Virus record (IMG/VR): IMGVR_UViG_3300042303_000391
Length of the DNA: 20,000 nt
Direction: 5' to 3' (one strand)
DNA from: an uncultured virus (IMG/VR IMGVR_UViG_3300042303_000391)
Taxonomy: Duplodnaviria; Heunggongvirae; Uroviricota; Caudoviricetes
Below, piece after piece: positions 4,395-19,650 of the stretch. Made by a program: the position numbers and the translations under genes. The stretch's first letter is position 1; the number at the start of each line of letters is the position of its first letter. Below the pieces are notes generated by a model. That model had not been told where the DNA came from and did not search any database. It worked only from the letters and a program-made list of their open reading frames with translations.

Positions 4395-5033
4395 ATGAAA
4401 TTATCATTAAATAAAACAAAATTGTACTATTATGATAGGGATTCACTCACCTTTAAAAAAGGCAAATGGATTAACGGACTATACCTATCTTTAATTTTAA
4501 ATATGCTAATAATAGCAGGATTACTTTCTAATAATGTTTCAGTAAATATGAAATATACTAATATGTTAAGCATATTGAAGCAAAAAGAAAAAACTATTAA
4601 GCATTTAGAAGTAAAAAGCCAAGATAGTGCTACTGAATATACTGATTTCAGAAGAAGTTTGCCCCTTAAATTAACTCTAAAAGAAGAAAAAAGATTGAAT
4701 CATTTGTACTTTACCTATAAAAGTTTAATAGATAAGCATCATTGTCCTCATAACTTATTATGGTATATTGCATTTAAAGAATCAAGATTAAACTTAAACG
4801 CTAAAAATTCTAGTTCTTCTGCTAAAGGTATGTTCCAATTTATAAATGGTACCTGGAATGCTATGTGTAAGAGAGGGGGGATGGATGTTTTAAATAGATA
4901 TTCTGAAGAAAAACAAGTAAAGGTGGCTTGCATTTATCTTGATTTTTTATTTGAAAAATATAAAGATTGGCAATTAGTACATAAAGAATATACAGGTGGA
5001 GTTATACATTATAGACTACCTTATTACAAATAA
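4395..5033 (+). CDS. membrane-anchored lytic transglycosylase (SLT/GH23)
   Basis: Catalytic motif IAFKES, then SSAKGMFQFINGTW and YLDFL; N-terminal TM helix and coiled segment. Confidence 0.85.
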   Translation: MKLSLNKTKLYYYDRDSLTFKKGKWINGLYLSLILNMLIIAGLLSNNVSVNMKYTNMLSILKQKEKTIKHLEVKSQDSATEYTDFRRSLPLKLTLKEEKRLNHLYFTYKSLIDKHHCPHNLLWYIAFKESRLNLNAKNSSSSAKGMFQFINGTWNAMCKRGGMDVLNRYSEEKQVKVACIYLDFLFEKYKDWQLVHKEYTGGVIHYRLPYYK

Positions 5034-5063
5034 ATAAATTATCACCCTTAAAATTAAATTAAA

Positions 5064-5303
5064 ATGACAGAAAAAATAGATAATTGCCCAGAGGGCGGAG
5101 ACGGCATAGTAATTATACCCAAGCCCTCCTACTTGCTTCCAAAAGACTATTCAAGATGTATTTCTGTAGATTGCCCTGCTAGAGATTGTGCTAGGCTACA
5201 AAACTATCTTTATGATAGGCAAAGTGAAGAGCCTATATTAATGTCTGATTTTAGTCAAGACAAAAAAATAGAGTCAAAAGAAGATTGTGAATTTTACCTA
5301 TGA
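5064..5303 (+). CDS. small Cys-rich, possibly metal-binding protein
   Basis: DYSRC-x4-CP-x3-CAR...CEFY; ATGA overlap with the helicase. Confidence 0.65.
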   Translation: MTEKIDNCPEGGDGIVIIPKPSYLLPKDYSRCISVDCPARDCARLQNYLYDRQSEEPILMSDFSQDKKIESKEDCEFYL

Positions 5304-6361
5304 AAGCAGAAGTCCAGGAAAAAGCAGTGAACGCTTTCCTATCCTCTAAAGATAGAAGATCCACTATTGCTCTAGCGGTAGGAATGGGAAAGACAAAGTG
5401 TGCTATTGATATTATTAAACACTATAGAAGTACTAACCCTTATTGTAAAATTTTATTTAGTGGTGCAAGACAAATTTATATTAAAAACTTTAAAGATGAA
5501 TTAACTAAATGGGGTTGTTTGGAAAATAACATTACCTTTATATGCAATAAATCTTTGAAAAATTACAACGAAAAGTACGATTTGATTATTATAGATGAAA
5601 TGCACAAGGAAAAAGATCTTATATTGGAAAATTGTTTGAGACTTATGAGAATAAACCCTGCGGTATCTATTCTAGGACTTACAGGTACGCCAAGCAATAC
5701 CCATGAAATTCACAAATACTTTCCTATTTGTTATTCCTACCTTATCAATAATGCTATTGATAATAATTTATTGAATAATTTTCAAATGGTTGTGGTTAAG
5801 TATAAGATGACTCCTGAAGAAAAAAGTGTTTATGATTATCATCACAAAAATTATTTAACATCTCCATATAATGAATCCTACCCTCCTGAATTAGGCAAAC
5901 TGAAGCAGTTCTTAAATACATTACCTAGCAAAGTGGCTCTAGCTAATAGACTAATTAATGAGAAATTTTCAGATAAAAAGCTACTAATCTATGCAGGAAG
6001 TATTGAGCAAGGTGCTAGTTTTGGGTTTTCTCAATTTAATTCTTCTATGGATAATAAAACTAAGAAGAAAAACTATGATGAGTTCTATCACTCTGAATCA
6101 GGTAGACTAGTAAATGTAGGAATCCTAAAAGAATCCGTTAGTATACCAAATTTAAAGTATGGATTTGTGCTAGGAATAGATAGTTCTCCTTCATCAAAAG
6201 AACAACTTATCGGAAGATTTTGCAGGATAGCAGTACATGAGAAAAGTTTTATATATTTCTTAGTAGCTGAGGGAACTTTAGAAGAAAAGTGGGTGTTGAA
6301 TGGTATGGATAAATTTAAAGATAAGATAGCAGTAGTTAACCTTAGTAAAAATAAAAAATAA
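5300..6361 (+). CDS. superfamily 2 DEAD/DEAH-box helicase
   Basis: Walker A AVGMGKT, IIIDEMH, motif III GLTGTP, motif VI QLIGRFCR. Confidence 0.92.
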   Translation: MKAEVQEKAVNAFLSSKDRRSTIALAVGMGKTKCAIDIIKHYRSTNPYCKILFSGARQIYIKNFKDELTKWGCLENNITFICNKSLKNYNEKYDLIIIDEMHKEKDLILENCLRLMRINPAVSILGLTGTPSNTHEIHKYFPICYSYLINNAIDNNLLNNFQMVVVKYKMTPEEKSVYDYHHKNYLTSPYNESYPPELGKLKQFLNTLPSKVALANRLINEKFSDKKLLIYAGSIEQGASFGFSQFNSSMDNKTKKKNYDEFYHSESGRLVNVGILKESVSIPNLKYGFVLGIDSSPSSKEQLIGRFCRIAVHEKSFIYFLVAEGTLEEKWVLNGMDKFKDKIAVVNLSKNKK

Positions 6362-6362
6362 T

Positions 6363-6677
6363 ATGAAAGAAGAAATGATTAAAAAAATGAATGAAGATAT
6401 GATTTTAGCTGAATGGATCTCTACTCGTCTATACAATAGAGTAGTGTGTATTTTAGAAAAACTTGATAGAAAAATTAATCTTCGTAATGAACAAAATGGA
6501 TATAGAAACTTTTGTTTACAAGATTTGCTTTTAGTAAATTTAGATGAACTAAAAGCATTAAGAAATGTAGGAGAAGTTTCTATTAAAGAATTTGAATTTT
6601 GGCATTCAATAGCTTTAAAAACCAAAAAGCTAGAACGACTATGGCTTGGCGAAGGCGTGGCTACTACAAATGCTTAA
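6363..6677 (+). CDS. stand-alone RNA polymerase alpha-CTD-like (HhH) protein
   Basis: ISTRLYN...LQDLLLVNLDELKALRNVGEVSIKEF parallels alpha-CTD LSVRxxN...LxDL...EDLLKxRNFGKKSLxEI. Confidence 0.7.
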   Translation: MKEEMIKKMNEDMILAEWISTRLYNRVVCILEKLDRKINLRNEQNGYRNFCLQDLLLVNLDELKALRNVGEVSIKEFEFWHSIALKTKKLERLWLGEGVATTNA

Positions 6678-6723
6678 CCAAAGAACTAAATTTTATTAGC
6701 CACATTTTATAAATACCTTGTTA
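6634..6723. mobile_element. attC-like element A (chimeric or degenerate)
   Basis: AAC...GGCTTGGCGAAGG (shared with element C)...GTGGCTA/TAGCCAC inner inverted repeat...GTTA. Confidence 0.6.
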
Positions 6724-6732
6724 GGCAAAATT

Positions 6733-6984
6733 ATGATAAACGAAATAATAGAACAATACGAAGATGAAACATTCTTAAAGGCTGATGGGTTTGATGAAGC
6801 CATTATCGGAGTATGTGAGGACTTTAATGCTCCAGTTAGATTAATATATTCAGTTACAAAGTGTATAGAAATACTTATGAGAGATATGTCAGAAGAAGAT
6901 GCAATGGAGCATTTTAATTTCAATGTAAGTGGCGGTTATGTGGGGGAGAAAACTCCGATATGGTGTTGGGACAATTTCACCTAA
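6733..6984 (+). CDS. conserved phage hypothetical protein (ADGFDEAIIG...FNVSGGYVGEKTP type); cassette 1 cargo
   Basis: ATG 6733 is the likely start; the stop codon is the TAA of TAAC; motif familiar from aquatic phage hypotheticals. Confidence 0.8.
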   Translation: MINEIIEQYEDETFLKADGFDEAIIGVCEDFNAPVRLIYSVTKCIEILMRDMSEEDAMEHFNFNVSGGYVGEKTPIWCWDNFT

Positions 6985-7113
6985 CGGTAGGCTACTTTGC
7001 GTAGTTAACCTTGGTAAAAATAAAAACAATGAATGATTTTGAATCTGCAAAAAATATAAATGAATTATTTAAAAATTAATTTCCAATAAATTAACCAACT
7101 AAAAACTAAAAGA

Positions 7114-7380
7114 ATGAAAAAGCAATTAAATTCTACTTACTTAGTAGCAGAGTATCTAAAGGAAAACAAAAAAAGCTACATTCATGACATGAAAAAAAAA
7201 TGTAAAGCAAACAACGTAGGAGCGAGGGTAATGGCACTAAGGCGTTCATTTGAATGGAAAATAGATACTATTTTAGAGGGGTACAAAGATGGCGTTGCGA
7301 TATGGTATTATAAGTTAGTAAAGGCAAAAAAAATGCCAGAGCAGTACAATTTAAAGCCATTGAATAAAGCTAGTGCATAA
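7114..7380 (+). CDS. putative winged-HTH DNA-binding protein (HTH_39-like)
   Basis: GARVMALRRSFEWKIDT...WYYKL resembles ARIxELRxxGxxIxT...YxL; stop codon inside TAAC of element B. Confidence 0.55.
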   Translation: MKKQLNSTYLVAEYLKENKKSYIHDMKKKCKANNVGARVMALRRSFEWKIDTILEGYKDGVAIWYYKLVKAKKMPEQYNLKPLNKASA

Positions 7381-7505
7381 CGTTCCGAGTATTGCCGCAG
7401 TAGCGGAATTAGAATTACAAAACTTAAAATTAAGAACAAATGTCAAATAGAAAAACAAAAGTTGAACATACCACAGAACCCGCTATTGTCGGCAATACTG
7501 TGTTA
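7378..7505. mobile_element. attC-like element B (128 bp)
   Basis: TAAC-6nt-AGTATTGCCG-CAG-TAGCGG...CCGCTA-TTGT-CGGCAATACT-2nt-GTTA. Confidence 0.8.
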
Positions 7506-7751
7506 GCTGCCGTTAAAATCAAGGACTTACCAAAAGATACCAATTTGCAAGGCATAAAGGTTAAACTACCAAAACATATTTATACTTCTTCAAGTCTGCC
7601 GATGTATGGTATAAAAAATAAGCCTGTGTATTTGCAAGGATGGGTAATGGGTGATTTTTTTGTAAAAACAGACTTGAAAAGCAGTCAAATTTATCCTATG
7701 TTTTGGTCGTTTGTTCCGTCAGATTTTCAAGAATGGGAGGTTGTCAGTTAA
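7440..7751 (+). CDS. hypothetical protein; cassette 2 cargo, start codon inside element B
   Basis: ORF track; the first ~21 codons are encoded by the loop and right arm of element B. Confidence 0.7.
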   Translation: MSNRKTKVEHTTEPAIVGNTVLAAVKIKDLPKDTNLQGIKVKLPKHIYTSSSLPMYGIKNKPVYLQGWVMGDFFVKTDLKSSQIYPMFWSFVPSDFQEWEVVS

Positions 7752-7758
7752 TGGCAGC

Positions 7759-7845
7759 TAACGTTATAGGGCTTGGCGAAGGTGGGCTTGTAGGATGCTC
7801 AATTTTAGCAGAATGTGTCTGCCCACTTTTGCCAAGCCCGTGTTA
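7759..7845. mobile_element. attC-like element C (87 bp)
   Basis: TAAC-6nt-GGGCTTGGC-GAAG-GTGGGC...GCCCAC-TTTT-GCCAAGCCC-2nt-GTTA. Confidence 0.8.
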
Positions 7846-7884
7846 TATGCCGTTTGAATTATTAACCAATTAAATAAATATAAA

Positions 7885-8103
7885 ATGAATATCATTAAAG
7901 ATAACAGAATTGTATCAGACAAAACATTTGCAACCCGGTTTGTAAGTTTCTTAAAAGACATACAAGTTAATGACCCAATGAGCGAAGAAGAACTTGAATA
8001 TCTGCGTAGGGTTGCACATTCTTTACTTCTTCATCAAGCTAATACTTGCACCGAAAAAGAAGAATTAAACTACTTAGATAGGTGTCACCCAAATGGCATA
8101 TAA
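7885..8103 (+). CDS. hypothetical protein; cassette 3 cargo
   Basis: ORF whose stop is the TAA of TAAC at 8101-8104. Confidence 0.65.
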   Translation: MNIIKDNRIVSDKTFATRFVSFLKDIQVNDPMSEEELEYLRRVAHSLLLHQANTCTEKEELNYLDRCHPNGI

Positions 8104-8145
8104 CTCGCTGCTTTACGAAATTTTTGTAACACAAATTAAACCTAA

Positions 8146-8328
8146 ATGCAGATAAATACTGAAATATTAAACATAAGGATAAGTAAAGAGCAAAAGCAAA
8201 CCTTAGATAAATTAAAAGAGTATAATGTTAACGTAGCTCAATTTGTGCGAAATGCAATTAAGGAGAAGTTGCAACGAGAAAAAGCCGAAATAATAACTAA
8301 CTATAAAAATTTAGAATGCCCATTTTGA
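8146..8328 (+). CDS. ribbon-helix-helix (CopG/Arc-like) DNA-binding protein
   Basis: Beta strand ILNIRIS, helix KEQKQTLDKL, then NVAQFVRNAIKEKL. Confidence 0.7.
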   Translation: MQINTEILNIRISKEQKQTLDKLKEYNVNVAQFVRNAIKEKLQREKAEIITNYKNLECPF

Positions 8329-8340
8329 AAAAAAAAATAA

Positions 8341-8348
8341 TACATTTG
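8341..8348 (+). promoter_or_regulatory. Bacteroidota -7 promoter element TACATTTG(CA)
   Basis: TAnnTTTG 20 nt before the nuclease/PolA operon. Confidence 0.7.
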
Positions 8349-8368
8349 CACCTAAAAAAATAATAATT

Positions 8369-9244
8369 ATGTTTAATAAAGAAAAAGACAGATTAAGTTA
8401 TAGTTCTCTCACTAGACTTATAAAAGAAGGAGTACAAGGATTTTTAAACCCTGTATACAAAAGAAATAATGCTTTAGAGAAAGGGTCTATTATAGATAAG
8501 ATAGTTTTTGATGAGCCTATCACTGAAACTATTATAGATATTCCTATTCCAAAGCCTCAAATTAAGGCTATTATTGAAAATATTTTTACAGAGGAGTATA
8601 ACTACGACCTCTCTGCGGAAAACTTAGAAAAGGTTTGTGGTATATTAGATGTGAAATCTAAGAATTTTGAGAAAATAAAAGAATCCGTTCTGGAGTTTCC
8701 TGAATATATTGAATATGCAAAAAATCCAAAAGGTAAGTTTCTAAAACCTAATTTTGAATTAGGAACCTCTATTGCCAATAATGTGCTAAAAGATAGAGAA
8801 GCCGCCTATTTATTCAGTAATGGTAAGGCTCAGTTTGAGTGGAGTTTTCAATACAGAGGATATAACTTTTTTATAAAGACAGATTATTTAAAAGTGGATC
8901 ATGATAGACAAGAGATTATTATCACTGATTTGAAATCCAGCAGCTACCCTCCGAAATTTCCTGATAGTGTGCAAAAATATTTGTATCACTTACAGGGGGC
9001 TTTGTATACAAAAGGGGTGGAAGACTGGATGGAGAAAAATGATTTGAACCATTATGTACTAAAAACTTTTCATTGGGTGGTATGCAATTCTACCAAAGTA
9101 GATAGTGTGCTAGTATACCCCCTATCTTATAAAGACGAGATGGAAGGTAAACGTATTTTAGAGGAAACTTTGGATAAGATTGACAAGTACATTGAAAATG
9201 ATTGGCAAGAAATCCCTGAAGAAGATACCTTAACTTTTTTCTAA
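8369..9244 (+). CDS. PD-(D/E)XK exonuclease (RecE/PDDEXK-like recombination nuclease)
   Basis: LSYSSL, KTDYL...ITDLKS, YHLQGALY motifs. Confidence 0.85.
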   Translation: MFNKEKDRLSYSSLTRLIKEGVQGFLNPVYKRNNALEKGSIIDKIVFDEPITETIIDIPIPKPQIKAIIENIFTEEYNYDLSAENLEKVCGILDVKSKNFEKIKESVLEFPEYIEYAKNPKGKFLKPNFELGTSIANNVLKDREAAYLFSNGKAQFEWSFQYRGYNFFIKTDYLKVDHDRQEIIITDLKSSSYPPKFPDSVQKYLYHLQGALYTKGVEDWMEKNDLNHYVLKTFHWVVCNSTKVDSVLVYPLSYKDEMEGKRILEETLDKIDKYIENDWQEIPEEDTLTFF

Positions 9245-11275
9245 ATGACAAACCACATAATCACAAAAAACAAATCCTTTTTCCAAAAAATAGGGGAGTA
9301 TAGTTACTGTAATCTTGAAGACATGGTGCTTCCTGAAATAATAGCGGTAGATACAGAGACTACTTCCCTCTCTGCCTTTGAGGGGGAAATATTTGCCATT
9401 CAAATAGGAACAGGGACAAATAATTATCTAATTGATTTGCAGACACATAAAGAGAATATAATTAATTTAGAGGAAGTTATGCCTTTTATATTGGATAAGG
9501 TTATGATATTTCATAATAGTGCCTTCGATTTGAGTTTCTTCTTTATCAAGAATTACTTCCCTAAAAAAGTGGGAGATACGATGTTGGCATCTATGATTCT
9601 ACACAATGGAGAATTCGGAGTATCACATTCTTTTAAGAATTGTATGCAAAGAGAGCTAGGGGTTATATACGACAAAACAGAACAAGCTAATATTGCTAGA
9701 GTTCAGTTATCGCAGCCATCCACAATTCAATATTGCTTTAATGATGTTGATAGACTATTAGAGTTACACAATGATTTAGTGATTAAATTAAAAGATTATG
9801 AAGCCATAGATTCTTATAAATTGCATTGTAGACATATCAGGGCACTTACATATATGGAGTTATGCGGACTTCCAATATCAAAGGATAGGTGGAAAGCAAA
9901 AATGGATAAAGATTATTCCCAATACAAAAAATGTGAGAGAGAAATAATTGATTATATTTTTGACACCCTGCCTAAATATAGAGTTTTACAGATGGATATG
10001 TTTAGCAACGAAAGGAAAGTAAATTGCCTATTAAGTTCTCCTAAACAAATGATAGAAGTGTTTAAAGATTTAGGTATAAATGTCACTTATAAAGAAAAAG
10101 GAGAGATAAAAGAAAGTTTAGAAAAAGGAGTTATAGCTAAGTCAAATCATGAGTTTGTAAAAATGTGGCTTAAATATAAAGAAGTGGAGCATAATGTAAC
10201 TACTTTTGGAGAGGGTATTTATTCTAAAATAAGGGATGGAAGAATATACACCCACTTCAAACCGATAGTAGACACTGCTAGACTATCTTCAAGAAAGGGA
10301 GAGATAAACTTTTTAAATTTTCCCTCTAACAAAGAAACAAGAGAATGTTTCGTGGCAAATGAAGGATTTGACATTATTGTAGCTGACTACGCAGGGCAAG
10401 AAACAGTTGTAGGGGCTGATATTACTGGAGACCAAGCCATGATTTCTTCTATAGTGGAAGGAAAGGACTTACACTGTGCCTTTGCTAGAGTTCTCTATCC
10501 TGAATTATTAGATCTTTCTGATGAAGAAATTATTAAAAATCATAAAGCAAAGCGAAATGCTTCTAAAGCACCTAGATTTTGTTTCCAATTTGGGGGTACT
10601 GGATTTACTTTAGCAGAGAATGAAGGATTATCTATAGAGGAAGGAGATCGTATTGAAAAATTATTCAAAGAATTACATAATGGAGTGTACTCTTATGGGG
10701 AAAATAAGCTAAAGGAAGCTTTAGAGTTTGGTTATATTCAATATGCAATGGGATTTAAATTAAAGCTACCAATGTTTGATATTTTCAAAGACCTTGATGA
10801 GAAGATTTCAAATATGGATAGAGATTTTTGGAATAAATATAGAGTGGGTAAGCAAGAAAATCTGAAATTTGAGAAAGCTAAAGATAAAGGGAGTTCGTAT
10901 GTAATATCAGATATGGGGGCATACAATTGCTTTAATGCAAATAAACTAATGATGAAGGATTATTTCAGTTTAAAATCTCAGTATATGAGATTATGTTTAA
11001 ATGCTCCCACACAAGGCACTGCTGCCCATCAAACTAAAATGGCTTCAGTGTTGTTATTTAATCAAATTGAAAAAAACAATGACTATTGGAAAGCAAGGAT
11101 AGCAAATGTAATACATGATGAGATAGTTTTGGAAACTGAGACTCACCTATCAGAAAAATATGCTAGAATACTGGAAAAAAGTATGATAGAGGGTGGTAAT
11201 ATATTTCTCACCAACCCTACACTATTTATGAGTGCTGAAAGTAATATTGGAAAATCATGGTATGAAGCCAAATAA
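9245..11275 (+). CDS. polA: family A DNA polymerase with 3'-5' exonuclease
   Basis: ExoI DTETT, ExoII HNSAFD, ExoIII YCFND, TARLSS, motif A DYAGQE, motif B RNASKAPRF, motif C HDEIV. Confidence 0.95.
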   Translation: MTNHIITKNKSFFQKIGEYSYCNLEDMVLPEIIAVDTETTSLSAFEGEIFAIQIGTGTNNYLIDLQTHKENIINLEEVMPFILDKVMIFHNSAFDLSFFFIKNYFPKKVGDTMLASMILHNGEFGVSHSFKNCMQRELGVIYDKTEQANIARVQLSQPSTIQYCFNDVDRLLELHNDLVIKLKDYEAIDSYKLHCRHIRALTYMELCGLPISKDRWKAKMDKDYSQYKKCEREIIDYIFDTLPKYRVLQMDMFSNERKVNCLLSSPKQMIEVFKDLGINVTYKEKGEIKESLEKGVIAKSNHEFVKMWLKYKEVEHNVTTFGEGIYSKIRDGRIYTHFKPIVDTARLSSRKGEINFLNFPSNKETRECFVANEGFDIIVADYAGQETVVGADITGDQAMISSIVEGKDLHCAFARVLYPELLDLSDEEIIKNHKAKRNASKAPRFCFQFGGTGFTLAENEGLSIEEGDRIEKLFKELHNGVYSYGENKLKEALEFGYIQYAMGFKLKLPMFDIFKDLDEKISNMDRDFWNKYRVGKQENLKFEKAKDKGSSYVISDMGAYNCFNANKLMMKDYFSLKSQYMRLCLNAPTQGTAAHQTKMASVLLFNQIEKNNDYWKARIANVIHDEIVLETETHLSEKYARILEKSMIEGGNIFLTNPTLFMSAESNIGKSWYEAK

Positions 11276-11290
11276 ATTAAATTTAAAGTT

Positions 11291-11713
11291 ATGAGAAGAA
11301 AGACAGTAAAAAAATCCAACACCACAACTCCTAGGAAAAAGAAAAAGGTAGTTAATCCTAGAGTAGTGAGAGAATATTGTGGAGGTACAATGACCAAATC
11401 AGCTTTTTTTGGTGCCATTAGAGCTTTTTTAAGACAGAGGTGGTTATACTCTTGTCCTTTTAGAAAAGAGATACTTAAAAGGGCTTATTCTGCCTTGTTA
11501 AAAAAATGGCAATGCAATCATTGTAAAAAAATGTTCTTAAAAAAAGATGTAGAAGTAAATCACATTGAGCCCTGTGGTAGTTTAAGGGATTACTCCGAAA
11601 TAAAACCATTCCACGATAGGTTATTCGTAGAGGATATAAGCAAGCTAGAGGTGCTTTGTAAAGGTTGTCATAAAATTTTTACAGAAAAAAGTAAAATAAC
11701 GCTTGACATTTGA
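11291..11713 (+). CDS. HNH endonuclease-like protein
   Basis: CNHC...EVNHIEP...LEVLCKGCH zinc/HNH pattern. Confidence 0.8.
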   Translation: MRRKTVKKSNTTTPRKKKKVVNPRVVREYCGGTMTKSAFFGAIRAFLRQRWLYSCPFRKEILKRAYSALLKKWQCNHCKKMFLKKDVEVNHIEPCGSLRDYSEIKPFHDRLFVEDISKLEVLCKGCHKIFTEKSKITLDI

Positions 11714-12253: not shown

Positions 12254-13377
12254 TGGATATTTTAAAAGTAATAGAAGAGAGCAGGGATTCATTAATACAA
12301 GGACATATTAATAGTATTCCTATGCCATTCAACGGAACAAGAAAAGCCTTTAGTGGTATATTTCCAGGGGCACTTGTGTGTGTTACTGCTGAAACCTCTG
12401 TAGGTAAAACTTCTTTAGCCAAGTACTTATATTTATTTAGTGTTGCTGATTATATTTTAGATGACCCTGCGTTTAAGTCTTTTAAATATAAATGTATATG
12501 GTTTGGATTAGAAGAGTCTGAGGAAGAATTTGATATTAGTGTACTACAATATGCCATCTCTAAATATTTCAATAAACATTGTACACAAGATGAATTATTA
12601 AGCAGGATAGAGCCTATTTCGGAAGAAGTAATTGCTATGATAAAATCAGATCCTGTTCAAAGGTATTTCGACACTGTAAAATCTTTCACCAAATTTGACG
12701 ACCAAACTGGCCATGCTACAGGTATTTATAAAACTTGTCAAGAGTATTCAAAAGAAATTGGTGAGCACCATTATAAAGAAAAACAATTGAGTGGGGGTAA
12801 AGTGATTAATATTTACAGTCATTACACTCAAAACGACCCTAATGAAATAGTGGCAGTAGTTATAGATAACGTAAACATTTTGGAATTAGAAAAAAATGAA
12901 TTAGGAATGTCGCTTGATTTGTCAGGATGTATAGATAGACTTGTGAATACTTATATGAGAAAGCAAGTTACAAAGCATTGGAAATGGCATGTATGTTGTG
13001 TACAACAGCAACAAATGGCAGCAGGGGACCTAAACCACTATAAAGCAGGTAAGCTTGAGCCTGAGCCTCAGAAATTAGGAGATAATATAAAGGTAGCAAG
13101 ATCTTACCAAGTTATCTTAGGATTATTTTCTCCTTATAAGCACAAAATGACAAATTACTATAAGTATCCGATTTTAGCTTCTGATAGAGTAGATGGCTTT
13201 GAAGAATGCTTTAGAACTATTCATATTTGTAAAAACCGATTCGGTAGAACAGGAGTTGCAGAACCTTTGTTTTTCAACCCTAAAGGCTTTAGTTTTTTCA
13301 GTATGCCAAAAAATGATGACACCCAAAATTTAAACCAATTATTAACCTATAAACAACAAATTTTAAAAGATGAGTAA
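12253..13377 (+). CDS. DnaB-like (SF4) replicative helicase
   Basis: Walker A AETSVGKTS, FGLEES, VVIDNV, VQQQ, ICKNRFGRTG. Confidence 0.9.
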   Translation: MDILKVIEESRDSLIQGHINSIPMPFNGTRKAFSGIFPGALVCVTAETSVGKTSLAKYLYLFSVADYILDDPAFKSFKYKCIWFGLEESEEEFDISVLQYAISKYFNKHCTQDELLSRIEPISEEVIAMIKSDPVQRYFDTVKSFTKFDDQTGHATGIYKTCQEYSKEIGEHHYKEKQLSGGKVINIYSHYTQNDPNEIVAVVIDNVNILELEKNELGMSLDLSGCIDRLVNTYMRKQVTKHWKWHVCCVQQQQMAAGDLNHYKAGKLEPEPQKLGDNIKVARSYQVILGLFSPYKHKMTNYYKYPILASDRVDGFEECFRTIHICKNRFGRTGVAEPLFFNPKGFSFFSMPKNDDTQNLNQLLTYKQQILKDE

Positions 13378-14101
13378 TTTAACATTGCCAACAGGGAAGA
13401 TTGCCCCTTCAGTAGTCAATCCAAGAACTATGGTTATTTTTAGCCAGAAAAAGACGGGGAAAACCCACGCACTCAGTGAGTTGGAGGATAACCTGATTAT
13501 TAACTTCGAGCACGGAGCAGATTTCTATGAATCCATGAGGATTAACATAGATTCCCTGCAACAGTTTGATGAATTAGCTAAACTTTTCCACAAAGAAACC
13601 CCTCATTACAAGTTTATTACACTTGATACGGTGACTTCTTTGAAAGAGAAGCTATTGAATCAATTAGCAGTGAGAACCTATAACAAAGATACAGGTAAAT
13701 CAGAAGCTGCTGACTTTGATATTGATAGACTAGAGTATGGAAAAGGTCAAGTCTATAAACGAGAAGCCTTATTCAAAATTATGGAATTCTTTACAAGATT
13801 CTGTGATACGTTGATTATTGTAGGACACGTTTCGGATAAATCAATCTCTACTTCAGGACAAACAATTAAAGAGCTGAATCTTGAAGGTAAGTTGAAAGAT
13901 TTACTTGCTCTAAGAGTAGATGCAATTGGGTATATGTATAGAAATACAGAAAAACCAAATGTAAATATGCTTTCATTTATCCACTCTGAAGAAATTGTAG
14001 GTGGCACAAGATGTAAGCACCTTAGAAACAAGGAGTTTGAAATCTCAGAACTTATAAATGATGATAAGCTAGAGACTCATTGGGACAAGATTTTTATTTA
14101 A
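13370..14101 (+). CDS. AAA_24/Sak4-like P-loop ATPase
   Basis: FSQKKTGKT, INFEHG, ITLDTVT, IIVGHV. Confidence 0.85.
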   Translation: MSNLTLPTGKIAPSVVNPRTMVIFSQKKTGKTHALSELEDNLIINFEHGADFYESMRINIDSLQQFDELAKLFHKETPHYKFITLDTVTSLKEKLLNQLAVRTYNKDTGKSEAADFDIDRLEYGKGQVYKREALFKIMEFFTRFCDTLIIVGHVSDKSISTSGQTIKELNLEGKLKDLLALRVDAIGYMYRNTEKPNVNMLSFIHSEEIVGGTRCKHLRNKEFEISELINDDKLETHWDKIFI

Positions 14102-15998: not shown

Positions 15999-16442
15999 AT
16001 GATAGTAAAAATAAAAAAATTGAGTGAACTTGCGGTGATACCAGCTTACGGAAAGCCAGGAGACGCAGGAATGGATTTAACCGCTACAAGCTTAACTATT
16101 GATGAGTTCGGAAATTACGAGTATGGAACAGACTTAGCTATAAAAATCCCAGAAGGACACGTTGGGCTTATATTCCCAAGAAGTAGTATTTGCAAGGTGA
16201 CACAATCATTGACAAATTCCGTAGGAGTTATAGATTCGCAATACGTTGGAGAAATAAAATTCAAGTTCAAGCCTACTATGAAAATGCCTAATGGAAACGA
16301 AAAAGCAAAATCAATGTATGAGGTGGGAGAAAGAATAGGGCAATTGATAATCATGCCTTACCCTAAAATAGAATTTGAAGAAGTGGATGAATTACCTACA
16401 ACTGAAAGAGGAGATGGGGGATTTGGCAGCACAGGATTTTAA
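15999..16442 (+). CDS. dut: trimeric dUTPase
   Basis: AGMDL, PRSS, GVIDSQYVGE, RIGQL, RGDGGFGSTG. Confidence 0.97.
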   Translation: MIVKIKKLSELAVIPAYGKPGDAGMDLTATSLTIDEFGNYEYGTDLAIKIPEGHVGLIFPRSSICKVTQSLTNSVGVIDSQYVGEIKFKFKPTMKMPNGNEKAKSMYEVGERIGQLIIMPYPKIEFEEVDELPTTERGDGGFGSTGF

Positions 16443-17730: not shown

Positions 17731-19650
17731 ATGAGAACACTTAAACTATTGATTATAAGCTTATTAGCTTGTATAAACATTTATGGACAAACAGGCCCCG
17801 CAGCTCCTTCTACTGGTATATGGGCATTAATTGACACCGCTTATAATGTAGGAACAACTACACAAGGATTTACAAAAGCAAGAGTTACATTAAAAAATAC
17901 CACCACTACAAAAGTAACAGGTGTGCAATTCAGAGTTTTTTATGACAAAGTTGCTTTTAAAAACTCAGGGGTTAGCTTAGTGGGAAGTACAACCAATCTT
18001 GATTTACAATATGTAACGGATTCTGTAAATGGATTTTCAACTATAACATTAATTTATACAGGTAATAGTAGTGCTTATTCCCTTGCTAATGGAGAAACTT
18101 TTGAGCTTACTCTTACACACGCTGCTCCATCTATTTTTAATAATTTAACTTTTATAGACTCTTTGAAATTTTCAGGAGTATCTACCTTTCCTCAATATGC
18201 TTCTACACAAGCAGGTATGGATACTACTTTAGGACTATACAGTTATAATGGAGAATTCAAAAGACCAAAACTTAACTTCAAAGGTACCTTCGCAAATGTG
18301 AATGGAACTGGAGCTAAAAATTTAACTTTATCTTTAGAGAAAAAACCTAAGTCAGGGTCAACTTGGGCTCAAGTAAATTCTTATAAAACTAATATTGCAG
18401 GTAAGTTTTCATTCTCAGAAACATTGGATACTACTTTCTGGGATGTAAGATTAGCAGTTAAAGGGGATACAATGGGTGTAGGTAATGTAGTTTCTACAAC
18501 AGACGCTCAATTGATTAACCAATGGGTATTGGGTGTGGGTACCCCAAAAGATTTTGATTTCTATGCTGCGGATGTAAATGGCAATTCTAATATTACAGTG
18601 GCGGATGCTTTTGGAGTATTTGGAAGAGTAGCAGGAAGAATAACAAGTTGGTCTAATAATGTAAAAGATATTAAATTCTTTACAGCAGCAGAATATGCTA
18701 CAATTACAGGAACACCTACAACAAACTATACATCAACTATTTCAGGTGTAACTAATTTTTACTTTGATATATTGCCAGGGCAACCTGACTCGGTTACATA
18801 TTATGTAGTGGTTCCAGGAGATGCTAACTCTACAGGATACAATATGGCTAGAACAACTCCAATGGAAATCCTTATAAATGGTCCACAAGATTTAGACCCT
18901 CAAACTCACAGAGTTATTGATACAAAAGTGGAATATGATTTCCCTACTAATAATATTGAGTTAACTGTCCCTAAATTAAATGTAAATGAAGGAAATATGG
19001 TTAATATCCCTGTAAGTTTAAAATCTGACAGCATCAATGTATTGGCTTTGCAATTTGGGTTGAAATATGATAGCACACTTCTTAATTTTAAAGGAATCTA
19101 CTCTAGTGCTAATACACAAAAATGGTTCACTTATGTAAATCCTAGTGAAGGAGAAATTTCTTGGGGAGGATATGATCCAAGTAACAATACTAATCCTTTA
19201 AAAAATGGAGATGAAATTATTACATTTCAGTTTTTAGCATTAAAACCTCAAGCTGATTGGGGAGTTAGTCCTCTTTACACTTCAAGTAAATTTGCAGGAA
19301 ACGTACAATCAAAAGATTTATCTCTATCTCCTAGTAATAATATTATACAAGTGAGAAAAATGTCTCCCACTAATATTGGAAGAATTATAGATGCTAACAC
19401 TATGGAAGTTTATCCAAATCCTACAACGGGAATTATAGATATTGTTTTTAATGTAGAAGAAAGCACAAATGCCACATTATCAGTTTATGATATATTGGGT
19501 AGCTTACGCATTACAGTATTATCAGAACCTGTAGCAAAAGGACAATACACTTATAGAGCGGATTTAGGTACACTATCTGCGGGAATTTATACAGCAAAAT
19601 TGCTATTAGATAACAAAAGTGTGCTAGTTTCAAAAATTATTAAACAATAA
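17731..19650 (+). CDS. secreted cohesin/dockerin protein with type IX secretion C-terminal sorting domain
   Basis: Signal peptide ending IYG|Q; cohesin-like GVQFRVFYD and NIPVSL...ALQFGLKYD; dockerin-like STTDAQLI...AADVNGNSNITVADA; CTD VYPNPTTG...VYDILG...LSAGIY...KIIKQ. Confidence 0.88.
   Translation: MRTLKLLIISLLACINIYGQTGPAAPSTGIWALIDTAYNVGTTTQGFTKARVTLKNTTTTKVTGVQFRVFYDKVAFKNSGVSLVGSTTNLDLQYVTDSVNGFSTITLIYTGNSSAYSLANGETFELTLTHAAPSIFNNLTFIDSLKFSGVSTFPQYASTQAGMDTTLGLYSYNGEFKRPKLNFKGTFANVNGTGAKNLTLSLEKKPKSGSTWAQVNSYKTNIAGKFSFSETLDTTFWDVRLAVKGDTMGVGNVVSTTDAQLINQWVLGVGTPKDFDFYAADVNGNSNITVADAFGVFGRVAGRITSWSNNVKDIKFFTAAEYATITGTPTTNYTSTISGVTNFYFDILPGQPDSVTYYVVVPGDANSTGYNMARTTPMEILINGPQDLDPQTHRVIDTKVEYDFPTNNIELTVPKLNVNEGNMVNIPVSLKSDSINVLALQFGLKYDSTLLNFKGIYSSANTQKWFTYVNPSEGEISWGGYDPSNNTNPLKNGDEIITFQFLALKPQADWGVSPLYTSSKFAGNVQSKDLSLSPSNNIIQVRKMSPTNIGRIIDANTMEVYPNPTTGIIDIVFNVEESTNATLSVYDILGSLRITVLSEPVAKGQYTYRADLGTLSAGIYTAKLLLDNKSVLVSKIIKQ

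What the first reader, a model, noticed from the sequence alone, without database searches (positions are those of the whole stretch)
6634..8130. Integron-like gene cassette array inside a phage genome, no integrase in the window
Seen: small genes alternate with GC-rich hairpins that run TAAC...GTTA (A 6634-6723, B 7378-7505, C 7759-7845; half-sites from 6982 and 8101). Each intervening unit has ends complementary to itself: GTTAGGCAAAATT (6720) / AATTTCACCTAAC (ends 6985), 11/13; GTTAGCTGCCGTTAA (7502) / TTAATGGCAGCTAAC (ends 7762), 14/15; GTTATATGCCGTTTG (7842) / CAAATGGCATATAAC (ends 8104), 14/15. Three ORF stops coincide with the TAA of TAAC. Established: integron cassettes show this R'/R'' complementarity, which is restored in the excised circle. 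Inference: the phage gains or shuffles accessory genes as cassettes, using a host or distant tyrosine recombinase. I cannot confirm this is undescribed.
Basis: partly seen in the sequence, partly recalled or inferred. Interest (0 to 1): 0.88.

Follow-up and report, generated by a model that had tools for sequence, protein, structure and literature searches.

The report
Integron-type gene cassettes in a phage
A lytic phage of Bacteroidota carries, between two replication genes, a swappable row of small accessory genes, each bounded by a folded DNA site of the kind that bacterial integrons use to capture genes.

Summary
Hairpins B and C and the two 15-nt end-pairings are present; two such anchored pairings never arose in 500 shuffles.

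Each unit reads TAAC | G, bulge, hairpin, TGTTA, pairing strand, ORF, pairing strand, TAAC |.

The locus between helicase and nuclease is hypervariable among phages whose flanks are 92-100% identical. Of 13 relatives, 2 match the window, 5 are empty and 6 hold other or reordered units. Joints fall at TAAC and at GTTA.

The end-pairing covaries in 15 of 15 distinct cassettes of this phage group, always with G opposite T at position 11.

The hairpin belongs to a large family: more than 122 viral contigs and 103 stretches in bacterial genomes, nearly all Bacteroidota. One member, P12002L_attC1, is already published as a predicted phage attC.

In bacterial chromosomes the family forms arrays beside a tyrosine recombinase in a fixed layout, 6 of 6 cases.

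This phage encodes no such enzyme. Its ORFs run opposite to those of the bacterial arrays.

Verdict: an integrase-less, integron-type cassette array, a new variant of a known kind. The recombination mechanism is inferred, not shown.

The parts
5300..6361 (+). SF2 helicase gene, conserved left flank of the variable locus
   Evidence: Pfam ResIII and Helicase_C. It is 74-100% identical in DNA in all 13 related loci.
6328..6363 (+). Direct repeat (helicase 3' end and upstream leader), repeated at 6997-7032
   Evidence: the repeat finder family D1. The segment 6363-6996 lies between the two copies.
6363..6677 (+). ORF of 104 aa whose 3' end runs into the left arm of decayed hairpin A
   Evidence: No Pfam or PHROG match. 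Its last codons vary in L004 exactly within the hairpin arm.
6633..6723 (+). Element A: a decayed hairpin (GAACG ... GTTA). Its left arm is related to that of C; its right arm has eroded.
   Evidence: Direct repeat D15 with C, sequence, weak fold of -7.6 kcal/mol. It travels with ORF 6733-6984 in L004 and L005.
6720..6985 (+). Cassette body 1 with ORF 6733-6984 (83 aa, phrog_13182). Its ends pair 11 of 13.
   Evidence: It lies after the 7114-7380 ORF in L005 but before it in the window.
6986..7113 (+). Remnant: second copy of the helicase-end repeat plus the last 16 codons of an ORF that is whole in L005, L007, L014 and L095
7114..7380 (+). ORF of 88 aa. Its stop is the TAA of TAAC 7378-7381, which is the left joint of the structured array.
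   Evidence: Four different sequences follow this TAAC in the window, L005, L014 and L007.
7378..7505 (+). Element B: TAACG, 4-nt bulge, 19-bp hairpin with a 75-nt loop holding the ATG at 7440, then TGTTA
   Evidence: DNA fold is -15.7 kcal/mol on + and -13.6 on -.
7502..7762 (+). Cassette body 2 (ORF 7440-7751, 103 aa). End-pairing 7502-7516 / 7748-7762 is 14 of 15, with G opposite T at position 11.
   Evidence: Repeat I16. Contig loose ends fall at 7507, 7759 and 7763.
7759..7845 (+). Element C: TAACG, 4-nt bulge, 19-bp hairpin (7769-7787 / 7821-7839, two G-T), then TGTTA. The loop holds only a 20-codon ORF.
   Evidence: Repeat I5. A 6426-nt contig of run X7 matches only 7759-7847.
7842..8104 (+). 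Cassette body 3 (ORF 7885-8103, 72 aa, phrog_24038). End-pairing 7842-7856 / 8090-8104 is 14 of 15, with G opposite T at position 11.
   Evidence: Repeat I10.
8105..8145 (+). Constant right flank that abuts the last TAAC whatever the last cassette is. It is a possible insertion (attI-like) site.
   Evidence: The window, L005, L007 and L014 share this flank after four different last cassettes. L013 and L090 carry a diverged relative of it after two more. The attI reading is inference.
8146..8328 (+). 60-aa ribbon-helix-helix-like protein gene, present only where an array is present
   Evidence: Weak CcdA and DUF6290 matches and phrog_25647. It is absent from the empty-site loci.
8369..9244 (+). 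PD-(D/E)XK nuclease gene, conserved right flank
   Evidence: Pfam DUF3799 and PDDEXK_1. Conserved in all relatives.

Best explanation
Window 6363-8145 is an integrase-less array of integron-type gene cassettes (a CALIN) in the replication module of a roughly 106-120 kb virulent phage of Bacteroidota.

Each cassette is one unit. It begins just after the previous TAAC with G, a 3-5 nt bulge, and a G+C-rich hairpin. The hairpin loop often carries the gene's upstream signals and start codon. Then come TGTTA and the ORF body. The unit ends with a strand complementary to the 15-20 nt that follow GTTA, finishing in TAAC.

If the unit were closed into a circle, the two end strands and the hairpin would form one long bulged hairpin of attC type on the + strand. 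That strand is the one where every mismatch is G opposite T.

Shown: the anatomy, its covariation, the turnover of units among near-identical phages, and the link of the same hairpin family to tyrosine recombinases elsewhere.

Inferred: cassettes are cut and joined at TAA|C by a tyrosine recombinase supplied in trans, by the host's chromosomal array or by a co-infecting phage. Homologous recombination between the similar hairpins then reshuffles them further.

Cargo in relatives includes DNA methyltransferases, so the array probably serves as an exchangeable store of counter-defence and other accessory genes.
For: Anatomy in the window:
- Hairpins and end-pairings are present and exceed chance.
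- Joining each cassette's 3' end to its own 5' hairpin gives a continuous hairpin: 17 bp, a 4-nt bulge, then 19 bp. DNA energy is -28.0 and -32.1 kcal/mol on the + strand, against -23.4 and -26.0 on the - strand.

Turnover among relatives:
- Of 13 helicase-anchored relatives, 2 equal the window, 5 have helicase directly followed by nuclease, and 6 hold other or reordered units.
- Six different last cassettes all end in TAAC. Four of them abut the same flank; the L013 and L090 cassettes abut a diverged relative of it. Four different sequences follow the TAAC at 7378-7381.
- Contigs of four further runs break at 7377-7382, 7759-7763, 8104, 7507 and 7845-7849.

Covariation:
- 17 elements were found in the window-group loci, and 2 had no partner. 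All 15 distinct cassettes with a partner of at least 12 of 15 have G opposite T at position 11, while other positions covary.
- Hairpin arms differ wholly in sequence between cassettes yet stay complementary.

The wider family:
- The short form (fixed loop GTCGTTTTAATGC) occurs in more than 122 viral stretches. 65 unique cores gave 9 of 13 predicted pairs with compensatory changes.
- Among those viral loci, 104 distinct cassettes have a partner: 89 with G-T at position 11, 13 with a mismatch, 2 Watson-Crick.
- L095, an array at this same locus, holds short and long forms side by side. In run X9 a short-form hairpin follows the window's own TAAC at 7762.

Link to recombinases:
- There are 103 stretches in bacterial genomes, nearly all Bacteroidota.
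- A Fluviicola chromosome has 24 same-oriented elements over 38 kb, ending about 1 kb from a tyrosine recombinase gene.
- Cargo there is integron-like: toxin-antitoxin pairs, hydrolases and secreted proteins.
- Five more bacterial loci show the same recombinase-then-array layout, 6 of 6 in all.
- Viral contig L156 has at least 10 cassettes ending 45 nt before a 271-aa recombinase gene.
Against: - No recombinase is shown to act here. PF00589 is absent from the window's record and from four relatives' records, two of them rated 100% complete. It is also absent from 4 of 5 other array-bearing viral contigs.
- Joints occur on both sides of the hairpin. One hairpin is shared by L014 and L095 while both neighbouring bodies differ. 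L005 and L014 diverge inside a hairpin loop. Crossover at a single point does not predict this.
- The published family member P12002L_attC1 was the one of six phage sites that class 1 integrase did not recombine (PMC9892861 section 3.4 and supplement).
- The adjacent bacterial recombinases miss the integron-integrase cut-off: TIGR02249 scores 151-208 against 265, matched in two stretches. The listed first stretch ends at model position 170-181, and whole-genome hits resume near 237-244.
- The canonical pair of extrahelical bases was not found. A 4-nt bulge stands in its place.
- The long end-pairing and G-T at position 11 are features of viral copies. In isolates and complete bacterial genomes, 26 of 36 elements had no partner of at least 12 of 15.
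- Many of the 103 bacterial stretches are in metagenome bins and may be phage contigs.
Confidence: 0.58

Rival explanations
1. Homology-driven shuffling. The hairpins, with gene-start signals in their loops, are portable regulatory repeats. The phage's own recombination proteins exchange DNA between them, as promoter-stem-loop (PeSL) repeats do in T4-type phages. No site-specific enzyme is involved.
For: - Joints lie on both sides of the hairpin and inside its loop. Hybrid hairpins exist: L014's first element has the left arm of A and another right arm.
- Complete relatives have no tyrosine recombinase.
- The array sits among recombination genes: PD-(D/E)XK nuclease 8369-9244 and AAA_24 protein 13370-14101.
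- Long-form loops share an upstream motif with other early genes of this phage.
- PeSL-mediated shuffling and mini-circles are documented (abstract of PMC2839356).
Against: - It does not explain why each cassette's two ends pair with each other, covary, and keep G opposite T at position 11 in 15 of 15 cassettes.
- It does not explain why different cassettes meet a shared flank at exactly TAAC with no shared sequence to the left.
- It does not explain why the family sits in a fixed layout beside tyrosine recombinases.
- A simple scan of 6200-8500 found 6 sigma-70-like promoter sites (shuffles: mean 10.9) and 0 intrinsic terminators (shuffles: mean 1.0). That scan does not cover Bacteroidota promoter types.
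Confidence: 0.25
2. RNA-level element. In the phage the hairpin and the long-range stem act in the mRNA. The stem closes each ORF and the hairpin frames its start. Together they could guide double-strand RNase processing into single-gene messages, or control stability or translation. Mobility would be a side issue.
For: - In viral contigs the ORF has the same sense as the better-folding strand in 79 of 104 cassettes (1 antisense, 24 unclear), and in 9 of 15 (6 unclear) in the window group.
- All stem mismatches are G opposite T on the sense strand, which would be G-U in RNA.
- Start codons lie in hairpin loops and stops lie in the 3' pairing strand.
- The long 15-20 bp end-pairing is a feature of viral copies.
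Against: - In bacterial arrays the same hairpins lie antisense to Pfam-supported genes, in 3 of 3 loci examined. The family's common function therefore cannot be in the mRNA.
- No Rfam family matches.
- It does not explain unit-wise gain, loss and reordering, or the link to recombinases.
Confidence: 0.12
3. Non-autonomous transposons (MITE-like units bounded by terminal inverted repeats GTTA... / ...TAAC), moved by a transposase encoded elsewhere.
For: - The units are 240-950 nt with 15-20 nt inverted ends.
- MITEs shared between Bacteroidota and their viruses are reported. I saw only passages of PMC11602168 and cannot tell whether this element is among them.
Against: - The window's units show no target-site duplication (direct reading).
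- Units abut head to tail in one locus only. Scans of two complete genomes found them nowhere else.
- The inverted ends differ between units while covarying within a unit, which a shared transposase end would not allow.
Confidence: 0.03

Closest known systems
Clusters of attC sites lacking an integron-integrase (CALINs) in virulent phages (Qi et al. 2023, PMC9892861; abstract, section 3.4, passages and supplement read)
   Same: - A virulent phage with no integrase and a row of small ORFs separated by attC-like hairpins with AAC/GTT cores.
- DNA methyltransferases among the cargo.
- Their P12002L_attC1 oligonucleotide is a short-form member of this very hairpin family. I found it independently at NC_028924 30008-30056.
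   Different: - That site was the one of six that class 1 integrase did not recombine.
- In the parts I read, the paper does not report the 15-20 bp end-pairing with the fixed G-T, start codons inside the hairpin loop, ORFs inverted relative to bacterial arrays, cassette turnover among related phages, or the Bacteroidota chromosomal arrays.
Sedentary chromosomal integrons
   Same: - Long same-oriented arrays with a site after every ORF.
- The 5' end of each cassette is complementary to its own 3' site.
- Toxin-antitoxin cargo and a tyrosine recombinase at one end, as in Fluviicola with 24 sites.
   Different: - The recombinases best match NF040815 and miss the integron-integrase cut-off. The matches leave out the middle of the TIGR02249 model.
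- The recombinase gene points the same way as the bacterial cassettes.
- IntegronFinder 2.0 reports a single complete integron in Bacteroidetes, in Salinibacter ruber (passages of PMC9024848).
PeSL regulatory cassettes of T4-type phages (Arbiol et al. 2010, PMC2839356; abstract and outline read)
   Same: Repeated stem-loop modules between small non-essential genes in a hyperplastic region of a lytic phage. Insertions, deletions and replacements between close relatives occur at these modules.
   Different: PeSLs are a sigma-70 promoter plus a terminator. Here there is no terminator tail and no excess of sigma-70-like sites. Each gene is also enclosed by its own covarying long-range pairing.

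Membership tests
Integron attC site / gene cassette | Inverse core ...AAC and core GTT... bounding an imperfect palindrome | tested here: met
   B and C and every intact relative have TAAC ... GTTA around a 14-23 bp stem. A has GAAC.
Integron attC site / gene cassette | Site length 57-141 bp (as stated in PMC3053210) | tested here: met
   TAAC-to-GTTA length is 128 nt for B and 87 nt for C. Relatives range from 49 to 140 nt, and short forms at 46-57 nt sit at or below the lower bound.
Integron attC site / gene cassette | The start of each cassette is complementary to the inverse core of its own site, so the excised circle restores one folded site | tested here: met
   14 of 15 for two window cassettes and 11 of 13 for the third. 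15 of 15 distinct window-group cassettes pair at 12 or more of 15. The composite fold is continuous.
Integron attC site / gene cassette | Two extrahelical bases on one side of the folded recombined strand, typically T-N6-G (PMC3053210) | tested here: not met
   The fold shows a 4-nt bulge next to TAACG, one bulged T in B, and a fixed G-T mismatch 10 bp from the core. No T-N6-G pair is present.
Integron attC site / gene cassette | Array boundaries at one crossover point in the core | tested here: inconclusive
   TAAC joints are precise: six last cassettes all end in TAAC and four sequences follow 7381. Joints also occur at GTTA and inside loops.
Integron attC site / gene cassette | Recombined by an integron integrase | not testable with these tools
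   From the literature only: family member P12002L_attC1 gave no verified junctions with IntI1.
Complete integron | Adjacent integron-integrase gene carrying the family's extra domain | tested here: not met
   PF00589 is absent from the window's record and from 4 relatives' records, two rated 100% complete. The recombinases linked to bacterial arrays score below the TIGR02249 cut-off.
PeSL (promoter-early stem-loop) cassettes | Strong sigma-70-like promoter joined to a terminator stem-loop | tested here: not met
   6 promoter-like sites against 10.9 expected, and 0 terminator-like sites, in 6200-8500. The scan does not cover Bacteroidota promoter types.
MITE | Terminal inverted repeats with target-site duplication, dispersed copies | tested here: not met
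   Inverted ends are present, but there is no duplication. Copies are confined to one locus in the complete genomes G001 and G002.

The most novel reading that the evidence does not exclude
Bacteroidota and their phages share a distinct, so far unrecognised integron-like system. It is served by Xer/XerA-like tyrosine recombinases that lack the integron-integrase insertion.

The phage version is turned round. The folded site lies upstream of its gene and carries the gene's own start signals in its loop, so each cassette expresses itself. A long stem with a fixed G-T mismatch marks the cut.

Virulent phages without any integrase would then draw counter-defence genes, such as DNA methyltransferases, from a common cassette pool by borrowing the host's or another phage's enzyme during infection.
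Probability: 0.35. Interest if true: 0.85.

Novelty: new variant of a known kind. Interest (0 to 1): 0.72.

Why it matters
Integrons are regarded as rare or absent in Bacteroidota, and phage attC clusters are regarded as oddities (passages of PMC9024848 and PMC9892861). This window leads to a hairpin family with hundreds of copies in Bacteroidota phages and chromosomes. The family has clear structural covariation, real cassette turnover among near-identical lytic phages, and a fixed link to a non-canonical recombinase.

If the mechanism holds, three things follow. It gives a route by which lytic phages swap accessory and anti-restriction genes gene by gene. It widens the integron concept to a new phylum and a new enzyme type. 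It also gives a simple sequence signature (TAACG, hairpin, TGTTA, G at +11) for finding such cassettes in viromes.

Tried and rejected
- blastn of 5000-9500 against the phage record collection found no match.
- Rfam found nothing relevant in the window, and only a tRNA in five related loci.
- The 16-nt left-arm pattern gave 46 viral loci. All but the window's own group (L021, L022, L049, L050), L047 and L053 were unrelated chance matches.
- A hairpin hit at G000 6038-6192 lies inside a long coding region and was dropped as chance.
- The metagenome scan with the nuclease profile gave only 6 loci.
- I first read recombinase hits in four draft genomes as adjacent to the arrays from matching coordinates. 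A sequence check showed the contig numbers differ, so I withdrew that. Only the single-chromosome Fluviicola case and the tblastn hits inside the loci were kept.
- The cytosine methyltransferase cassettes of L014 and L090 are only 46% identical, so they give no evidence of recent transfer.
- All sequencing runs were available as contigs only. They cannot show rare circles or excision. Two small joints (7786 to 7822 and 7855 to 8089, sides of 24 and 21 letters) were too short to trust.
- IntegronFinder, HattCI and an attC covariance model were not available.
- I did not build a covariance model of my own. The loop length varies from 10 to 100 nt, and a custom duplex scan served instead.
- Literature searches for this family or for Bacteroidota integron-like arrays found no description beyond those cited. 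The library lacks most subscription journals.
Full report
**Setting.** The window is bases 37276-57275 of a 66,670-base virus record rated 61% complete. Its G+C content is 31%. All long ORFs lie on the + strand. Pfam names a replication and recombination module:
- SF2 helicase, 5300-6361
- PD-(D/E)XK nuclease, 8369-9244
- family A DNA polymerase, 9245-11275
- AAA_24 protein, 13370-14101
- dUTPase, 15999-16442

A 639-aa protein carries a type IX secretion sorting tail, which points to a Bacteroidota host. The finding lies between the helicase and the nuclease.

- The repeat finder lists hairpin C (19-nt arms, 89% complementary) and the two inverted repeats that enclose ORFs: 15 nt at 93% and 18 nt at 89%.
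- Hairpin B has 19 paired bases and one bulged T. Its 75-nt loop holds the ATG of ORF 7440-7751.
- Anchored pairs (GTTA plus 11 nt against 11 nt plus TAAC, 60-1500 nt apart, at least 14 of 15 matches) number two. No shuffle among 500 gave two; 13 gave one. At 13 of 15 the test has little power.
- Three stops are the TAA of TAAC.
- 'A' is a decayed copy. It starts GAACG, has an eroded right arm and folds weakly.
- Every stem mismatch is G opposite T on the + strand, so the + strand folds better than the - strand.

**Anatomy of a unit.** Relatives supply many more units. Each reads: previous TAAC, G, a 3-5 nt bulge, hairpin left arm, a loop of 10-100 nt, hairpin right arm, T, GTTA plus 11-16 nt, the ORF body, then the complement of those nucleotides ending in TAAC.

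Joining a unit's 3' end to its own 5' hairpin gives one continuous bulged hairpin. The hairpin arms differ completely between units yet stay complementary. The shared motif TTTTGCCAA is read in two different frames in L005 and L014, so conservation is at the nucleotide level.

The window-group loci hold 17 elements; 2 had no partner. All 15 distinct cassettes with a partner of at least 12 of 15 have G opposite T at position 11 from the G of GTTA, while the other positions covary.

**The locus is a hot spot of unit-wise change.** I found 13 helicase-anchored viral loci.
- Two equal the window over 5300-9500.
- Five have the helicase directly followed by the nuclease.
- Six hold other contents.

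Specific cases:
- L004 lacks about 7357-8334.
- L005 has the unit with ORF 6733-6984 after the 7114-7380 ORF, not before it.
- L014, L013, L007 and L095 carry other cassettes. These include a C-5 cytosine methyltransferase and a second DNA methyltransferase.
- Six different last cassettes all end in TAAC. In the window, L005, L007 and L014 they abut the same flank; in L013 and L090 they abut a diverged relative of it.
- Four different sequences follow the TAAC at 7378-7381.

Contigs of four further runs, labelled lake water metagenomes, break at 7377-7382, 7759-7763 and 8104, and also at 7507 and 7845-7849.

Scans of two records rated complete (119,980 and 105,849 bases) find the elements only at this locus. 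The shorter record has none.

**Which side the hairpin belongs to.** The hairpin goes with the ORF downstream of it. The 7114-7380 ORF is followed by four different sequences. Hairpin A stays with ORF 6733-6984 in two contexts. Start codons lie in hairpin loops.

There are also joints at GTTA and inside loops. One hairpin, with 23 codons in its loop, is shared by L014 and L095 while both neighbours differ. L005 and L014 share a left arm and half a loop and then diverge. A 6426-nt contig matches only 7759-7847. Homologous exchange within the similar hairpins explains these joints most simply.

**The family is large and partly published.** L095, an array at this same locus, holds a 49-nt short form beside long forms that share its arm ends. 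Polaribacter phage P12002L has the same short form. It is the oligonucleotide called P12002L_attC1 in the supplement of Qi et al. 2023. That paper reports attC clusters without integrase in virulent phages. It found that five of six tested sites recombined with class 1 integrase, and attC1 was the exception.

The 65 unique cores show compensatory changes in 9 of 13 predicted pairs.

In those viral loci, 191 elements were found and 59 had no partner. Of the 104 distinct cassettes with a partner:
- 89 have G-T at position 11, 13 a mismatch and 2 a Watson-Crick pair.
- The ORF has the sense of the TAACG...TGTTA strand in 79, is antisense in 1 and is unclear in 24.

**Link to recombinases.** The same pattern matched 103 stretches in the bacterial genome collection, nearly all Bacteroidota. 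These include isolates of Flavivirga, Marivirga, Wandonia, Eudoraea and Putridiphycobacter. Some of the metagenome bins are probably phage contigs.

In a complete Fluviicola chromosome, 24 same-oriented elements span 38 kb and end about 1 kb from a tyrosine recombinase gene. Cargo in three bacterial loci includes ParDE and HigB-type pairs, serine hydrolases, peptidases and secreted proteins. There the Pfam-supported ORFs run antisense to TAACG...TGTTA.

tblastn found related recombinases inside 8 of 80 bacterial loci and 3 of 80 viral loci. In the five bacterial loci that have both a recombinase and a detectable element, and in Fluviicola, the array lies downstream of the recombinase gene with the same relative orientation: 6 of 6.

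Six of these proteins (five from bacterial loci, one from L156) best match NF040815, two of them over its cut-off. They match the integron-integrase model below its cut-off, in two stretches that leave out its middle. The nearest solved relatives of one of them (the L279 protein) are archaeal Xer-type proteins, then IntI4.

Viral contig L156 (147,923 bases) has at least 10 cassettes with G-T at position 11. They end 45 nt before a 271-aa recombinase gene. Four other array-bearing viral contigs have none.

**Reading.** On the strand that carries the bacterial ORFs, the bacterial arrays read ORF...TAAC, hairpin, GTTA..., which is the usual integron layout. On that convention the window's + strand is the 'bottom' strand. 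The bottom strand is the one known to fold and to be bound by integrases (PMC3053210), and it is the strand that folds better here.

I recall, but did not see in the passages I read, that the usual crossover lies between the G and TT of the core. On the window's + strand that point maps to TAA|C, which is where the comparative joints lie. I therefore read the phage array as integron-type cassettes whose genes point the other way, each with its folded site upstream.

Recombinase action in trans is inferred. It is not excluded that shuffling among phages is purely homologous.

The long end-pairing and the fixed G-T are features of viral copies: 26 of 36 elements in isolates and complete genomes lack a long partner. 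These features remain unexplained. They may mark a phage-specific enzyme, or a second role in the mRNA.

**Novelty.** Integrase-less attC clusters in virulent phages are known. The following were not found in the papers I read or in five literature searches:
- the inverted gene orientation, with start codons inside the site
- the long covarying stem with its fixed mismatch
- the direct evidence of turnover
- the family's breadth
- its link to non-canonical recombinases in a phylum where one complete integron had been reported

I rate the finding a new variant of a known kind.

Noticed in passing
L007 7507-7600 and L095 2181-2266: A tRNA gene sits inside the variable locus of two relatives, between the small ORFs upstream of the structured cassettes (Rfam tRNA, 38.2 bits in L095). 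The window has no counterpart.
   Followed up: partly
window 17731-19650: A 639-aa phage protein combines cohesin and weak dockerin matches with a type IX secretion C-terminal sorting domain. This is an unusual secreted or surface protein for a phage, and a marker of a Bacteroidota host.
   Followed up: no
window, upstream of most early ORFs (for example 285-309, 2848-2872, 7089-7113, 7860-7884): A recurring motif, TTAAC(C), then 2-4 nt, then TAAAA, lies about 10-20 nt before start codons. Related A-rich motifs lie in the loops of long-form hairpins. It is probably the phage's early gene-start signal.
   Followed up: no
L156 79-5026 (also L137): A 147,923-base viral contig carries at least 10 cassettes of this family directly followed by a 271-aa tyrosine recombinase gene. 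This is a candidate complete phage-borne platform. A short TAAC-N-GTTAGAC site lies between the array and the gene.
   Followed up: partly
L290 (Paenibacillus dauci scaffold) and loci labelled Planctomycetaceae, Cloacimonadota, Saccharibacteria, Kordiimonadaceae: A few pattern matches lie outside Bacteroidota. Most are in metagenome bins and may be mis-binned. The Paenibacillus isolate locus also shows several strong TAAC...GTTA hairpins.
   Followed up: no
L249 versus L148: A contig filed under a Flavobacterium metagenome bin has the same length (34,585 bases) as an IMG/VR viral contig that holds the same element. Some 'bacterial' hits are therefore likely phage contigs.
   Followed up: no
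window 11291-11713: A 140-aa basic protein has weak zinc-finger and HNH-like matches (E about 0.001-0.006). It may be a small nuclease or DNA-binding protein next to the polymerase gene.
   Followed up: no
window 6997-7080: Only the last 16 codons remain of a 93-aa ORF that is whole in L005, L007, L014 and L095. The joint lies in a short repeat (AATAAAAACAATGAATG-like), which looks like a microhomology deletion.
   Followed up: partly
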